Below, one piece after another: positions 46,896 through 53,262 of a stretch of DNA of 64,000 nt. The stretch lies in contig JAISBT010000077.1 of NCBI GenBank assembly GCA_031266055.1, forward strand, positions 2,278 through 66,277, given 5' to 3'. This DNA is from Deltaproteobacteria bacterium (GTDB taxonomy: Bacteria > Desulfobacterota > Desulfovibrionia > Desulfovibrionales > Desulfovibrionaceae). How positions within the stretch are numbered: the stretch's first letter is position 1; each line of letters starts with the position of its first letter. Made by a program: the position numbers and the translations under genes. The notes below the pieces were generated by a model. The model was not told where the DNA came from and ran no database searches. It worked only from the letters and a program-made list of their open reading frames with translations.

Positions 46896-47105
46896 TGGAA
46901 TTATTGCGCCTGACCTGTATATCCGTTGCTTGTACGGCTGAAGGCGGAGACATCCGCCATTACGGAACAATACCGAATCATTTTGCGGCATTGGGTTATG
47001 CTGTTGAAAAGTTTTCTTGTAAAGGACTTGCTTTTTACCGCATAGCTGGATATGTATTCTGCTCCTCTTATTTCAGTTGCCTCGGTTTTCAGTTGCCTCG
47101 GTTCC

Positions 47106-47181
47106 GGGCGGTTAGCTCAGTTGGTAGAGCATCGGCCTTACAAGCCGGGGGCCACAGGTTCGAGCCCTGTACCGCCCACCA
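47106..47181 (+). tRNA. tRNA-Val (anticodon TAC)
   Basis: Manual cloverleaf: acceptor GGGCGGT/ACCGCCC, D-arm GCTCAGTTGGTAGAGC, anticodon loop CTTACAA, T-arm ACAGGTTCGAGCCCTGT. CCA is encoded. Confidence 0.93.
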
Positions 47182-50921: not shown

Positions 50922-51057
50922 ACGTAATTACGTTAAATTATTTGACTTATCGGTTTTGTTTTTTTGTTAATCTGTTTTTTACCGTTTTGTTTTTTTTTGA
51001 AATTTGATTTTTTGGCGTTTTGATGTTTTGTCAATTTGTTTTTTTGATTTTAAGGAT
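50922..51057. promoter_or_regulatory. Divergent control region: 12-bp palindrome ACGTAATTACGT plus about 100 bp of roughly helically phased T-tracts
   Basis: Palindrome at 50922-50933. T4-T9 runs start near 50953, 50958, 50975, 50985, 50990, 51008, 51018, 51026, 51039 and 51048. Lies between the divergent PucR-like and Rep-like genes. Confidence 0.6.
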
Positions 51058-51270
51058 ATTTATCATATAAAAACAAAACGTTATATGGCACATCTTCACC
51101 TGGTTGTCACATGGAAAATTCGGCTGAACCCGTTATTGTAGGAGAGCACGCAAAAGAAATACGTTGTATTGTAGGAAACCCCTTCAAATTTATTATCTTG
51201 CATTTTTTACGTTCCCGACCTCATTTCATGAGGGAAATGAGCACCCTCGTTTGTAACTGTGAGGGAACTT

Positions 51271-52668
51271 ATGAGCGACACAAACAGATATGCCTCTTCT
51301 GGCGGCAATACTTTGCCGTCAGAATCCTCCCTGAATTCAGAAAATTCTCCATATCCACCATATCCGATGGCTGAGGAAGGTTCATCGTTTGGGGACGCCG
51401 CTCCAGTAAAAACAAGTTTCGAGCGGTTCCCTGATGAATCACGCCTTTGTCCTTTACCTGTTCACGACCTGTCCAATATACCTGTCCAGGACCTGTCTTC
51501 AGCACCTGTTCACCACCTGTCCAGCATTGACGTGAACACGGGTAAGACAGGTGGTGGACAGGTGCTGAACACCTCAACTGGACAGGTGGTGAACAGTTCA
51601 ACCAGACAGGTGGTGGACAGTCCTGATGACTCGCCTGAGCCGTTTTATCTTCTCCGTAAGAATATGGCTTCGTGGACAGACAACCAAATCAAGGTGTTAG
51701 GCATGTTCAGGCAATGCAGGCACTGCGTTACCAACCATAAGGCAATCGGGGAAAAGCTTGGAATACCCTATGGAACAGTGAGAAATATCATCCGCAGGTT
51801 GACCAGTACCGGGCTCATTCGCTCAGAACCATACATAAATGCGGCTATCCGGGGCATTGAGGTGTGGTACTGCGGATCTGCCCCCTGTCCTTTTGTTCCG
51901 GATTCTTCAGGCATGGCACAAAGCCCTCGGATCGAAGATGAACAGGCCGGATGCACAGCTCCTGAACAGCATGTTAGGACAGGTGCTGAACACCTGACTT
52001 GGACAGGTGGTGAACAACTCGCATATAAGGAAGATAGAAAGAAAGAATATGGAATAGAAATACAAGAAAAGAATCAATCTATCGTAACTCTTGCAAAGGG
52101 TCAGATTAACGAACTATGGCCCAGCATGGGCAAGGCCGGACTTTTCGCGTCGCACATCAGGGAAGTCTTGGCTGCGATGGTAATTCAAGGAATTGAGGAA
52201 AAACCCGAGAAAATCATTGCTCAATCTTTGCGCTTTATAGATTGGCAACTCTCCCAAGGAGCGCTTAAAGACAAGCATGGAAAAGAGGTTCTTGACCCCG
52301 TGGCTTATTGGCGCGCCGCAATGAAAAGCAACGGTTTCTATCAGAAACCGCCGGGGTACATAGACCCGGAAGTGTTGGCTCTGCAACAGCTTTCCGAGGA
52401 AGGAGAAGCGAAGGTTAAAGCCATGTACGCTCTGGCCCAGCAACGCGCGGAGATGGAAAAAGCTGCCCGTAGAACAGAACTCGACGCTATCCTGCAATCG
52501 CTTGCCGACGAAGGTGAAAACCATCGCCTCTGGCCTCAAGTGCATGCAGCTTGGACGGAAAACGTCCGGCTTGAAGTAAAGAAAAATCCCCAGGCCATTC
52601 TCAGCAGCCCGGGGATTGCCGCGGCAACTAGGATTTACCTGAGAAAACTCTACGACTGGCCTGATTGA
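51271..52668 (+). CDS. Winged-helix DNA-binding protein, candidate replication/maintenance initiator of the element (function unverified)
   Basis: Long ORF (51259-52668, ATG at 51271 behind GAGGG). HTH-like segment LGIPYGTVRNIIRRLTSTGLIRSE. Iteron-like repeats lie inside its 5' third. Confidence 0.6.
   Translation: MSDTNRYASSGGNTLPSESSLNSENSPYPPYPMAEEGSSFGDAAPVKTSFERFPDESRLCPLPVHDLSNIPVQDLSSAPVHHLSSIDVNTGKTGGGQVLNTSTGQVVNSSTRQVVDSPDDSPEPFYLLRKNMASWTDNQIKVLGMFRQCRHCVTNHKAIGEKLGIPYGTVRNIIRRLTSTGLIRSEPYINAAIRGIEVWYCGSAPCPFVPDSSGMAQSPRIEDEQAGCTAPEQHVRTGAEHLTWTGGEQLAYKEDRKKEYGIEIQEKNQSIVTLAKGQINELWPSMGKAGLFASHIREVLAAMVIQGIEEKPEKIIAQSLRFIDWQLSQGALKDKHGKEVLDPVAYWRAAMKSNGFYQKPPGYIDPEVLALQQLSEEGEAKVKAMYALAQQRAEMEKAARRTELDAILQSLADEGENHRLWPQVHAAWTENVRLEVKKNPQAILSSPGIAAATRIYLRKLYDWPD
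51458..51620. repeat. Iteron-like array: three inverted then three or four direct copies of a 17-nt word on a 24-bp register
   Basis: Inverted copies: CTGTTCACGACCTGTCC (51458-51474), a degenerate copy (51480-51498) and CTGTTCACCACCTGTCC (51506-51522). Direct copies: AGACAGGTGGTGGACAG (51545-51561), GGACAGGTGCTGAACAC (51556-51572), GGACAGGTGGTGAACAG (51580-51596) and AGACAGGTGGTGGACAG (51604-51620). Confidence 0.9.
51977..52017 (+). repeat. Two further direct copies of the iteron-like word
   Basis: GGACAGGTGCTGAACAC (51977-51993) and GGACAGGTGGTGAACAA (52001-52017), again 24 bp apart. Confidence 0.88.
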
Positions 52669-52671
52669 TAG

Positions 52672-53262
52672 TCACCCTTTCCGTAGTTCATAAATTTTGC
52701 TGATAACGGCAGCTTTTATGGGTTTGGATGGCAGCACCGCCATGTAATAATCCCTGAACACCCCATCCTCAAAAAATTCCATGTTCAGCGCGAGGTCGTT
52801 TTTCTCGTTCCTGACCCGAGCCAGCAGTTTCTTCCGTAATTTTGAAAACTCCGTGTGCTGGCACATTATTTCAGCCCGCACCGCCTCATATTCTCTGTAT
52901 ATCCGTTTGTCGGCCATGGTCACTTTCAACCTGCCGGGGAGCCGCTCCCTGGAAATGCCACTTGGAGTATTGTCCCATGAAACCTTTGATTTTGGCGGTT
53001 CCAACCCGGCCTTCCCCATTTCCTCCCTTTGTTTCTTGCTGAAAGTCACATAGTAGTACCTCACCCAATAAATGGAATGCGGGCACATATCACATGCCTT
53101 CAATTCGGCGCACCGGTCCAGATGCAAAGTCCAGCCGCATTTCCTCGTTGCCGGAAATCGGTTGTAAAACGCTCCCGCCAAGTCCTCCATGAGCACTTTC
53201 CATTCCTTCAACTCGGCTGAGACATCTTTCAGCATTTTATCCAGGTTCAGACCGGTTTCCAT
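52672..53262 (-). CDS. Hypothetical Cys-containing protein, oppositely oriented
   Basis: 196 aa from METGLNLDK (GGAGG RBS 8 nt upstream). Contains C...C-x6-C-x2-C (CGWTLHLDRCAELKACDMC). No family recognised. Confidence 0.55.
   Translation of the reverse strand: METGLNLDKMLKDVSAELKEWKVLMEDLAGAFYNRFPATRKCGWTLHLDRCAELKACDMCPHSIYWVRYYYVTFSKKQREEMGKAGLEPPKSKVSWDNTPSGISRERLPGRLKVTMADKRIYREYEAVRAEIMCQHTEFSKLRKKLLARVRNEKNDLALNMEFFEDGVFRDYYMAVLPSKPIKAAVISKIYELRKG

What the first reader, a model, noticed from the sequence alone, without database searches (positions are those of the whole stretch)
51458..52017. 24-bp-phased inverted and direct iteron array inside the coding sequence of a winged-helix protein of the conjugative element
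- **Direct copies.** The 17-nt word GGACAGGTG(G/C)TGAACA(G/C/A) and its variant AGACAGGTGGTGGACAG occur in direct orientation at 51545, 51556, 51580, 51604, 51977 and 52001. Neighbouring copies sit exactly 24 bp apart.
- **Inverted copies.** The reverse complement occurs at 51458 and 51506, which is 2 x 24 bp apart. A degenerate copy lies between them, with ACCTGTCC and ACCTGTCT half sites at 51480 and 51491.
- **Overall shape.** The inverted and direct blocks face each other across about 33 bp. Together they form a large imperfect palindrome centred near 51539.
- **Evidence for DNA-level selection.** Everything lies inside ORF 51259-52668. There it is read as odd 8-residue repeats (PVHDLSNI/PVQDLSSA/PVHHLSSI, then GGGQVLNT/STGQVVNS/STRQVVDS). 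It also creates a mirror-image ORF on the other strand (51269-51601). That pattern points to selection on the DNA rather than on the protein.
- **Context.** The ORF carries an HTH-like segment (LGIPYGTVRNIIRRLTSTGLIRSE) just downstream of the array. It sits beside a phased T-tract region.
- **Interpretation.** Origins embedded in the initiator gene are established for RepA_N-type plasmids of Firmicutes. I know of no description for an F-type ICE in a Desulfovibrio-like host. The array could equally be a centromere or an autoregulatory operator.
Basis: partly seen in the sequence, partly recalled or inferred. Interest (0 to 1): 0.72.

Follow-up and report, generated by a model that had tools for sequence, protein, structure and literature searches.

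The report
Centromere-like repeat array inside its own gene
A DNA-binding protein gene of an integrated conjugative element carries about 20 copies of a short DNA word inside its own coding sequence. Its distant relatives on Desulfovibrio-type plasmids do the same and sit right after a ParA partition ATPase, so the array is most likely a built-in centromere-like binding site rather than a replication origin.

Summary
**Observation: confirmed.** About 21 copies of ACCTGTYCA/TGRACAGGT, spaced 11 or 13 bp (24-bp double unit), form three blocks inside ORF 51271-52668: left 51447-51523, inverted right 51533-51620, distal 51939-52017.

**The constraint is on the DNA.**
- One word is read in five frame and strand contexts (PV[HQ], LS, GQ, L[DN]S, WTG).
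- Its synonymous positions are fixed across orthologues of about 50% identity.
- The blocks fall in the two predicted disordered segments flanking a winged helix.

**Origin/initiator reading: not supported.** There is no Rep-family match and no DnaA box.

**Relatives point to partition.**
- About 300 representative relatives exist. In 49 of 56 distinct loci the gene directly follows a small ParA gene.
- Each relative carries its own 7-9-nt word, 7-25 times at 12-13-bp period, at the same two positions in its own gene and almost nowhere else.
- Loci with identical recognition helices carry the same word, and words differ between subfamilies.

**Best reading (inferred, no binding data).** A new winged-helix centromere-binding family whose centromere-like array lies in its own coding sequence. 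The ICE branch is an orphan: no ParA in the sequence available, and no basic N-terminal peptide.

Function in the ICE is unproven. Stabilising or positioning the excised element is favoured, with StbA/TraM-like transfer control as the main rival.

The parts
51271..52668 (+). Gene for the winged-helix protein, called X here. It is 465 aa from the conserved ATG; the ORF listing starts it at GTG 51259, giving the 469-aa numbering used in this report. Layout: disordered N-terminal region, winged helix, disordered linker, helical C-terminal domain.
   Evidence: ORF. Conserved MSD start after the Shine-Dalgarno sequence. AlphaFold2 gives pLDDT below 50 for aa 1-137 and 210-272, and high confidence for aa 141-204 and 273-469.
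51447..51523 (+). Left block: seven copies (two degenerate) of ACCTGTYCA spaced 11/11/13/11/13/11 bp. It is translated as PVHDLSNI / PVQDLSSA / PVHHLSSI, so the same word is read in two frames (PV[HQ] and LS).
51533..51620 (-). Right block: eight copies (two or three degenerate) of the same word in the opposite orientation (TGRACAGGT on the + strand), spaced 11/11/11/13/11/13/11 bp. It mirrors the left block about position 51539. It is translated as GQVLNT / GQVVNS / RQVVDS, using the GQ and L/V-[DN]-S frames.
   Evidence: (pairs I2-I4, I9).
51679..51870 (+). Coding region of the winged-helix DNA-binding domain (aa 141-204). The recognition helix IPYGTVRNIIRRL is invariant in the ICE clade. 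This region contains almost no copies of the word.
51939..52017 (-). Distal block in the linker after the winged helix: six copies in the same orientation as the right block, at 51939, 51963, 51976, 51987, 52000 and 52011. Here the word is read in a third frame (TWTGGEQ).
   Evidence: (family D1, pair I10).
52075..52665 (+). Helical C-terminal domain (aa 273-469) with a 52-residue helix, presumed to mediate oligomerisation. It carries the family signature (F/L)xDWQL ... PVAYW ... NGxYxKPxGY. No Pfam family and no PDB or BFVD fold match.
   Evidence: (mean pLDDT 88.9).
51140..51270 (+). Nearly invariant 5' leader of the gene, with two hairpins and an outer helix that pairs TCCC with the Shine-Dalgarno sequence GAGGGA. 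Probably controls expression of X. Not an Rfam family.
50954..51051 (+). T-rich array with 8-bp period (NNNNTTTG, about 12 copies) in the divergent intergenic region between the PucR-type regulator gene and X. It is a second, different repeat system. Whether it belongs to the same machine is unknown.

Best explanation
**What it is.** The repeats are a centromere-like array of binding sites for the winged-helix protein encoded by the same gene.

**What is shown.**
- The 7-9-nt word is under DNA-level constraint.
- It is confined to two places in the gene: the N-terminal disordered region and the linker after the winged helix.
- The same architecture, with a different word for each recognition helix, is found throughout a family of about 300 representative proteins.
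- Outside the ICE clade, these genes lie directly downstream of a small Walker-type ParA gene, in the ParB position.

**What is inferred.**
- Many X dimers bind cooperatively, about one dimer per 24-bp double unit, as reported for StbA on its stbDR repeats.
- They coat the two arrays and build a partition-complex-like nucleoprotein structure.
- In the plasmid cassettes a basic N-terminal peptide (for example MAKKKRRSLYDTL) would activate ParA.
- The ICE branch lacks that peptide, and no ParA gene is seen in the sequence available. It therefore probably acts without a dedicated ATPase on the excised circular ICE. Candidate roles are holding or positioning the element so it is not lost before re-integration or transfer, and possibly feeding back on its own transcription, because the sites lie inside its own gene.
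For: **DNA-level selection.**
- The word is read as PV[QH], LS, GQ, L[DN]S and WTG, which covers three frames and both strands.
- Codon choice at synonymous sites is locked to the word across 13 orthologues:
  - GGA 84% in the repeats against 19% background (p=5e-17).
  - CCT 100% against 15%.
  - ACA 94% against 24%.
  - AGY 83% against 30%.
- In the folded domains of the same genes, third-base identity at conserved four-fold codons is only 0.39, against 0.27 expected from composition. Synonymous sites there are close to saturation.

**Conserved architecture.**
- All ICE orthologues have a + block, a - block and a distal - block, with the word 10-20 times denser in the gene than outside.
- Same-orientation spacings are 11 bp (25 times), 13 bp (17), 24 bp (16) and 37 bp (12).
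- Across the 50 distinct genes carrying at least 7 copies of their word, 382 copies lie before the winged helix and 198 in the linker. Only 7 lie in the winged-helix coding part and 9 in the C-domain part.
- The arrays coincide with the AlphaFold2 disordered segments.

**Link to partition.**
- tblastn finds relatives only on Desulfovibrionales plasmids. All six plasmid loci whose annotation was fetched have the gene immediately after ParA.
- In metagenome loci, ParA is the only conserved neighbour: 49 of 56 distinct loci, same strand, ending about 15 nt before the start of X.
- In 38 ParA-X cassettes, no copy of the word lies within 400 nt upstream of parA. The intragenic array is therefore the only candidate centromere carrying that word in the cassette.

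**Specificity.** Loci with identical recognition helices carry the same word, and words differ between subfamilies. Examples: ACCGCTCA, GCGACCCAG, CTTCGACAACG, GGTCWGACC, TCCTGTCC.

**Periods.** A 13-bp period changes the reading frame at every repeat, so it cannot arise from selection on a peptide.

**Precedents.** A parS site inside the coding sequence of SCP2 parT (PMC12260392). NTPase-free segregation by StbA on ten short direct repeats arranged in two sets of five (bioRxiv 10.1101/2022.04.29.490116).
Against: - No binding, stability or localisation data exist for any member of the family.
- The ICE gene has no ParA next to it, and no ParA-like ORF occurs in the 64-kb window or in the orthologous contigs. 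The partition inference is carried over from relatives of only 20-26% identity.
- The ICE runs off the end of the window, so a ParA or another partner further along cannot be excluded.
- X is not a ParB/Spo0J-family protein: no ParBc or KorB match.
- The inverted arrangement of the left and right blocks is peculiar to the ICE clade and a few plasmids, and the centromere reading does not explain it.
- None of the plasmids examined has an annotated Rep gene, so a replication role for the cassette is not formally excluded.
- The link between helix and word is confounded by shared ancestry. At least one pair has similar words with different helices: L025 (TCCTGTCC) and the ICE clade.
Confidence: 0.58

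Rival explanations
1. Transfer-control or relaxosome accessory factor, analogous to TraM or StbA. X binds the array at the head of the F-type transfer region, next to a possible oriT in the T-rich intergenic region. It would control the switch between vertical maintenance and conjugation, or repress its own and neighbouring transcription.
For: - X is the first gene after an AT-rich, repeat-laden intergenic region, directly upstream of trbC-traF-slt...traL-traE-traB. This position is conserved in all ICE orthologues.
- It has no ParA partner and lacks the basic N-terminal peptide of the plasmid relatives.
- StbA of R388 is a centromere-binding protein whose two-set repeat array lies next to oriT and which also regulates conjugation (PMC3098194 listed).
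- From my own knowledge: F TraM binds motifs phased at about 12 bp.
- Sites inside its own gene would make a simple negative feedback by blocking transcription.
Against: - The word is not clustered at any other promoter or intergenic region in the 17 kb of ICE available. StbA and KorB, by contrast, have operators at several promoters.
- Relatives are overwhelmingly on ParA cassettes, and 13 of 14 plasmid hits are predicted non-mobilizable.
- No nic site or relaxase gene could be identified in the window.
Confidence: 0.2
2. Replication origin embedded in its initiator gene. X would be a Rep protein, the repeats its iterons, and the upstream T-rich region the unwinding element.
For: - Repeats sit in a poorly conserved linker of the gene, as in RepA_N plasmids (my own knowledge).
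- A T-rich region lies about 400 bp upstream.
- No Rep gene is annotated in pDMC2, pDMC1 or pDRET01.
- In pDMC2 and pDRET01, helicase-like genes lie near the cassette.
Against: - No Rep-family match in Pfam, NCBIfam or PDB. PHROGs gives only a non-significant hit (E=0.07) restricted to the HTH.
- No DnaA box in 50.9-52.7 kb.
- The 11-13-bp period with up to 25 tandem copies matches centromere arrays rather than iterons of about 22 bp.
- The conserved neighbour is ParA, and no replication gene is conserved nearby.
- The plasmid proteins carry a ParB-like basic N-terminal peptide.
- The upstream T-rich array changes type with the divergent regulator rather than with X.
Confidence: 0.1
3. A structure-forming element. 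The inverted left and right blocks fold into a long hairpin in the mRNA, or in the transferred single strand, and the hairpin rather than protein binding is the selected feature.
For: - Region 51440-51630 folds at -96.6 kcal/mol, z = -7.8 against shuffles.
- The +/- block arrangement is kept in all ICE orthologues.
Against: - The word itself is conserved across orthologues, not merely the complementarity, while copy numbers and spacers of the two arms differ.
- A third block in the same orientation as the right block lies about 400 nt away.
- Most relatives have purely direct arrays that cannot form hairpins.
- Rfam gives only spurious miRNA-type hairpin hits.
Confidence: 0.05
4. No DNA function. 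The repeats are recent slippage expansions of a low-complexity peptide in disordered linkers.
For: The arrays lie in disordered, poorly conserved protein segments, and copy number varies between orthologues.
Against: - Slippage cannot produce inverted copies, alternating 11/13-bp offsets, or the same word in two arrays 350-450 nt apart in different frames.
- The core word is kept across lineages whose synonymous sites are near saturation.
- Each subfamily has a different word, and loci with identical recognition helices share a word.
Confidence: 0.03

Closest known systems
Type I (ParA-ParB-parS) plasmid partition cassettes, especially type Ib with a small ParA
   Same: - In 49 of 56 relatives' loci, a two-gene cassette: a small Walker ParA (about 260-270 aa) followed by a DNA-binding protein.
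- A cis array of short repeats.
- A basic N-terminal peptide on the binding protein.
- A system-specific word, as expected of incompatibility determinants.
   Different: - The binding protein is neither a ParB/Spo0J (ParBc) protein nor a ribbon-helix-helix ParG. It is a winged helix joined to a C-terminal domain that matches no Pfam or NCBIfam family and no PDB or BFVD fold.
- The array lies inside the binding protein's own coding sequence, split around the DNA-binding domain.
- The ICE copy has no ParA.
StbA/stbS of plasmid R388 and Par of pSK1 (segregation by one DNA-binding protein, no plasmid NTPase)
   Same: - An HTH-type protein acting on arrays of short direct repeats at roughly one-turn spacing, arranged in two sets.
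- No dedicated ATPase, matching the ICE situation.
- StbA sits next to the transfer region and also controls conjugation.
   Different: - No sequence or family relationship was shown.
- The StbA and Par sites lie in promoters, not in coding sequence.
- X is much larger (465 aa) and has long disordered segments.
parS inside the centromere-binding gene: SCP2 parT (PMC12260392); B. subtilis spo0J (own knowledge)
   Same: The centromere lies within the coding sequence of the protein that binds it.
   Different: Those are single palindromic sites of 16-18 bp. Here there are 15-25 tandem short words translated as low-complexity peptide, in up to three frames and on both strands.
RepA_N-type replicons (pAD1, pSK41, pCF10) with the origin inside the rep gene
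   Same: DNA repeats bound by the gene's own product are embedded in a poorly conserved linker of that gene.
   Different: - X matches no Rep family.
- The period is 11-13 bp rather than about 22 bp.
- The conserved partner is ParA.
- No replication function is indicated.
TubR/tubC and ParR/parC (types III and II)
   Same: - Arrays of 11-12-bp repeats in two clusters, coated cooperatively by a small DNA binder.
- TubR is a winged helix.
   Different: - No TubZ or ParM partner.
- No homology was shown.
- Those arrays are intergenic.

Membership tests
Iteron replicon with Rep initiator (RepA_N, Rep_3 and similar) | The protein belongs to a known initiator family. | tested here: not met
   Pfam, NCBIfam and PDB give no Rep-type match. 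PHROGs gives only a non-significant hit (E=0.07) confined to the HTH. Only generic winged-helix hits appear.
Iteron replicon with Rep initiator (RepA_N, Rep_3 and similar) | Iterons of about 17-22 bp at about 22-bp spacing, next to an AT-rich unwinding element and DnaA boxes. | tested here: not met
   The unit is a 9-nt word at 11/13-bp spacing. There is no DnaA box in 50.9-52.7 kb. The T-rich stretch lies about 400 bp away.
Iteron replicon with Rep initiator (RepA_N, Rep_3 and similar) | The fragment supports autonomous replication. | not testable with these tools
   Needs cloning into a suicide vector in a suitable host.
Type I ParABS-like partition cassette | A Walker-type ParA gene is adjacent, in an operon with the DNA-binding protein. 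| tested here: not met
   For the ICE gene: no ParA-like ORF in the window or in the ICE orthologue contigs. For the wider family the feature is met: 49 of 56 loci and 6 of 6 plasmids.
Type I ParABS-like partition cassette | A cis-acting array of specific repeats within the cassette. | tested here: met
   No copy of the word lies upstream of parA.
Type I ParABS-like partition cassette | The binding protein binds the repeats, and the cassette stabilises a replicon. | not testable with these tools
   Only indirect support: loci with identical recognition helices carry the same word.
ParB/Spo0J/KorB protein family | ParB N-terminal (ParBc, CTPase) domain plus the ParB-type HTH. | tested here: not met
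   No such match in Pfam or NCBIfam at E up to 0.1. The C-terminal domain has no PDB fold match.
NTPase-independent single-protein segregation (StbA of R388, Par of pSK1) | One HTH protein plus an array of short direct repeats, with no element-encoded NTPase. | tested here: inconclusive
   The array and the winged helix are present, and no ParA occurs in the 17 kb of ICE available. The ICE is truncated at the end of the window.
NTPase-independent single-protein segregation (StbA of R388, Par of pSK1) | Homology to StbA or to pSK1 Par. | not tested
   No reference sequences were at hand. Pfam gave no such hit.
Structured RNA (Rfam family) | Match to a curated covariance model at or above the gathering score. 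| tested here: not met
   Only sub-threshold miRNA-like hairpin hits caused by the palindrome.

The most novel reading that the evidence does not exclude
An undescribed family of ParA-partnered winged-helix centromere-binding proteins writes its centromere into its own coding sequence. Tandem 12-13-bp words are translated, in up to three frames and on both strands, as the disordered tethers on either side of the DNA-binding domain. An ICE-borne branch has shed ParA and uses the same self-encoded array to hold, position or regulate the excised element without a dedicated motor.
Probability: 0.45. Interest if true: 0.82.

Novelty: new variant of a known kind. Interest (0 to 1): 0.7.

Why it matters
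**For plasmid and ICE biology.** If the arrays are centromeres, this adds a partition-protein family that matches no Pfam or NCBIfam model and no solved or BFVD structure. It is common on Desulfovibrionales plasmids, including pDV of the model sulfate reducer *N. vulgaris* Hildenborough, and most of those plasmids could not be assigned a replicon type.

**As a case of dual coding.** A protein-binding DNA array and a protein linker share the same nucleotides. That constrains both and ties the specificity determinant physically to its site, so the pair can never be separated by recombination.

**For ICEs.** It offers a testable candidate for how an excised F-type element is kept or positioned without a ParA.

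**In practice.** The word-in-own-gene signature gives a simple way to predict centromeres and incompatibility groups from sequence. The cassettes could also be tried as stabilising modules for Desulfovibrio vectors.

Tried and rejected
**Searches that found nothing useful.**
- The genome-contig scan with the ICE-clade alignment returned only an archaeal winged-helix hit. The family is absent from the GTDB representatives under the patterns used.
- Foldseek of the full model returned only generic MarR/CodY/AspA winged helices. The confidently modelled C-domain alone (pLDDT 88.9) matched nothing in PDB or BFVD.
- Long family members (550-971 aa) were scanned for informative fusions. None were found.
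- Rfam search of 50.7-52.8 kb gave only spurious miRNA hairpins.
- Literature searches found no paper on this family or on DVUA0002 function. The pSK1 Par primary paper was not in the library.
- The first metagenome scan with the very diverse alignment A3 failed for lack of conserved stretches. It worked with the plasmid-type alignment A4.

**Ideas tested and dropped.**
- Operator copies of the word upstream of parA: none in 38 cassettes.
- Extra word clusters elsewhere in the ICE: none.
- A conserved replication gene next to the cassettes: none. Apart from ParA, the 'conserved' neighbours were spurious ORFs in GC-rich DNA.
- A sigma-54 reading of the conserved leader motif GG...TTGCA: rejected by eye, because the spacing is about 25 nt and variable.

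**Not done.**
- The host was not identified. All plasmid relatives are Desulfovibrionales.
- The leader is too conserved to give covariation support.
Full report
**1.

- The 17-mer TGGACAGGTGGTGAACA (up to 3 mismatches) occurs 10 times in the 64-kb window. Nine occurrences lie in 51459-52016. Dinucleotide-preserving shuffles give 0.07 on average.
- CCTGTYCA occurs 18 times against 3.06 expected, with nine of the 18 in the gene.
- The repeat finder and TRF recover the 24-bp phasing, the inverted left and right blocks, and the distal direct block.
- Reading the sequence shows that each 24-bp unit is two copies of a 9-nt word, ACCTGTYCA, spaced alternately 11 and 13 bp.

| Block | Word starts | Orientation |
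|---|---|---|
| Left | 51447, 51458, 51469, 51482, 51493, 51506, 51517 | + |
| Right | 51533, 51544, 51555, 51566, 51579, 51590, 51603, 51614 | - |
| Distal | 51939, 51963, 51976, 51987, 52000, 52011 | - |

The left and right blocks mirror each other about position 51539.

**2. Context**

- The gene lies in an element integrated at tRNA-Val (47106-47181).
- Its neighbours are a tyrosine integrase, an HTH_17 excisionase-like gene, a divergent PucR-type regulator, and downstream TrbC, TraF, SLT, TraE and TraB/TrbI.
- The element runs off the end of the window.
- The conserved start is the ATG at 51271 (MSD...), after GAGGGAA.
- AlphaFold2 predicts a disordered N-terminal region (aa 1-137), a winged helix (141-204), a disordered linker (210-272) and a helical C-terminal domain (273-469).
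- Modelled alone, the C-domain reaches pLDDT 88.9. It has no fold match in PDB or BFVD.
- The three repeat blocks fall exactly in the two disordered segments.

**3. Selection acts on the DNA**

Only 14 close homologues exist in 5.8 billion proteins. Twelve orthologous loci were fetched. All show the same gene order, from the integrase through X and a reverse gene of about 196 aa to trbC-traF.

Four lines of evidence point to the DNA:
- **Same core word, same architecture.** All close ICE orthologues carry CTGTYCA/TGRACAG with a + block, a - block and a distal - block. Density is 5-12 per kb in the gene against about 0.5 per kb outside. The most divergent homologue, L012 (31% identity), has only two copies.
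- **Five reading contexts.** The word is read as PV[QH], LS, GQ, L[DN]S and WTG.
- **Locked synonymous positions**, shown in the table below.
- **Saturated background.** In the folded domains of the same genes, third-base identity at conserved four-fold codons is 0.39, against 0.27 expected from composition.

| Codon in the word | Share in repeats | Background | p |
|---|---|---|---|
| GGA (Gly) | 84% | 19% | 5e-17 |
| CCT (Pro) | 100% | 15% | 5e-12 |
| ACA (Thr) | 94% | 24% | 7e-9 |
| AGY (Ser) | 83% | 30% | 2e-5 |

The result is the reverse.

**4. What the protein is not**

- Pfam, NCBIfam, PHROGs and PDB sequence searches give only weak generic winged-helix hits.
- There is no Rep, ParB or KorB family match.
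- No DnaA box lies in 50.9-52.7 kb.

**5. The decisive lead: distant relatives sit behind ParA**

- tblastn against 72,556 plasmids finds relatives (24-26% identity over the winged helix and C-domain) only on Desulfovibrionales plasmids.
- In all six plasmids examined, the gene directly follows a ParA gene. The ParA identity was confirmed by Pfam matches to AAA_31, CbiA and ParA.
- The six plasmids are pDMC1, pDMC2, pDRET01, a *D. bizertense* plasmid, *N. vulgaris* pDsulf-L2-2 and pDV.
- A profile search of 1.84 billion representatives finds 296 family members.
- A metagenome scan returned 79 loci. Among 56 distinct loci, ParA is the only conserved neighbour: 49 of 56, same strand, ending about 15 nt before the start of X.
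- The plasmid-type proteins begin with a basic peptide such as MAKKKRRSLYDTL, MARKTLRDQLRES or MALSLREKLKQAS. From my own knowledge this resembles the ParA-activating N-termini of centromere-binding proteins.
- The ICE clade begins MSDTNRY and lacks that peptide.

**6. The intragenic array is a family-wide property**

- Every plasmid or metagenome relative carries its own 7-9-nt word, 7-25 times inside its own gene and 0-5 times in the 4-8 kb around it.
- The dominant period is 12 or 13 bp. A 13-bp period shifts the reading frame at every repeat, which rules out a peptide-level origin.
- Across the 50 distinct genes carrying at least 7 copies of their word, 382 copies lie before the winged helix and 198 in the linker after it. 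Only 7 and 9 lie in the parts coding for the two folded domains.
- Loci with identical recognition helices carry the same word, and words differ between subfamilies.

| Recognition helix | Word |
|---|---|
| YSTTRRIISKF | ACCGCTCA |
| PPATVQTICRRL | GCGACCCAG |
| YKTLRWVMSSL | CTTCGACAACG |
| PTTLRK.L | GGTCWGACC |
| YRTVRRGIDKL | TCCTGTCC / CTTGTCC |
| YGTVRNIIRRL (ICE clade) | CTGTYCA |
| RTTIRNVFRRW (pDMC2) | TGTGTCCAAA |

- In 38 ParA-X cassettes, no copy of the word lies within 400 nt upstream of parA. The intragenic array is therefore the only candidate centromere carrying that word in the cassette.

**7. Interpretation**

Shown:
- DNA-level constraint on the word.
- A conserved two-array architecture around the part coding for the DNA-binding domain.
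- Word identity that follows the recognition helix among close relatives.
- ParA linkage of the family.

Inferred:
- X binds its own arrays cooperatively and forms a partition-complex-like structure.
- In the plasmids, X is the ParB analogue of a type Ib-like system.

The ICE branch has no ParA in the window or in the orthologous contigs, and it lacks the basic peptide. It is therefore an orphan. Its role may resemble the NTPase-independent StbA/stbS system of R388. StbA also acts on two sets of short direct repeats beside the transfer region and balances stability against conjugation.

The word is not clustered anywhere else in the 17 kb of ICE available. That argues against a KorB- or StbA-style global regulator. 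Autoregulation by roadblock within its own gene remains possible.

**8. Rivals**

- **Origin/initiator.** This fits poorly: no Rep match, no DnaA box, the wrong period, ParA as the conserved partner, and no conserved replication neighbour. It is not excluded, because the plasmids have no annotated Rep.
- **RNA or single-strand hairpin.**
  - It is thermodynamically strong (-96.6 kcal/mol, z = -7.8).
  - It does not explain conservation of the word, the third block, or the purely direct arrays of most relatives.
  - The inverted arrangement in the ICE clade is still unexplained.
- **Neutral slippage.** Excluded by the inverted copies, the frame changes, the two separated arrays, and conservation across lineages.

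**9. Novelty**

- A single parS site inside a centromere-binding gene is known: SCP2 parT (PMC12260392) and, from my own knowledge, *B. subtilis* spo0J.
- Iterons inside RepA_N rep genes are also known.
- I found no description of this protein family, or of tandem centromere-type arrays translated as the disordered linkers of the binding protein.
- I rate it a new variant of a known kind: partition or centromere-binding systems.

**10. Limits**

- All functional statements are inferences from sequence.
- The ICE is truncated by the window.
- The host was not identified.
- The link between helix and word is not corrected for phylogeny.

Noticed in passing
window 51140-51270: The 5' leader of the gene is more conserved than much of the coding sequence across all ICE orthologues. 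Conserved elements are GTTRTATTGTAGGAACCCC, TTGCATTTTT, a hairpin CCTCAT-N5-ATGAGG, a second hairpin, and an outer helix pairing TCCC with the Shine-Dalgarno sequence GAGGGA. This suggests translational or transcriptional control. There is no Rfam match, and the leader varies too little to give covariation.
   Followed up: partly
window 50954-51051; L002 2341-2440; L009 and L014 upstream regions: A second repeat system with an unusual 8-bp period lies in the divergent intergenic region. Loci whose divergent neighbour is a PucR-type regulator have NNNNTTTG units. Of the three loci with GTTTCCAT/GTTTCCGT units, L002 has a 90-aa ORF in place of PucR. The neighbours in L009 and L014 were not established. 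The array type may therefore follow the neighbouring regulator rather than the winged-helix protein.
   Followed up: partly
window 52672-53262 (- strand): A reverse-strand gene of about 196 aa follows X in every ICE orthologue whose contig extends that far. It contains Cys pairs (CDMCPH) and has no Pfam, NCBIfam or PHROGs match. It could be a partner of the winged-helix protein.
   Followed up: no
window 47074-47105: A tandem 16-nt duplication (CAGTTGCCTCGGTTTT / CAGTTGCCTCGGTTCC) sits immediately 5' of the tRNA-Val gene that serves as the ICE integration site.
   Followed up: no
L020 1636-5031 (N. vulgaris Hildenborough pDV, DVU_RS15910): The pDV homologue is a 1131-aa protein directly after ParA. 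It carries 21 copies of GTCACCC inside its gene, an extreme expansion of the repeat-bearing disordered region in a model organism where the idea could be tested.
   Followed up: partly
L019 3343-4270 (N. vulgaris L2 plasmid pDsulf-L2-2): Between ParA and the annotated 235-aa homologue fragment lies an unannotated stretch of about 900 nt with 16 copies of GGACAGT/TGGACAG. This is probably the unannotated or frameshifted N-terminal array region. The word resembles that of the ICE clade.
   Followed up: no
window 51269-51601 (- strand): The 110-aa mirror ORF on the opposite strand is a by-product of the inverted repeats, since the word lacks stop codons in both orientations. There is no evidence that it is a gene.
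   Followed up: partly
L016/L100 (pDRET01): pDRET01 carries the ParA-X cassette plus a separate ParA-ParG pair, an extra parG and a further AAA ATPase gene. No Rep gene is annotated in this plasmid.
   Followed up: no
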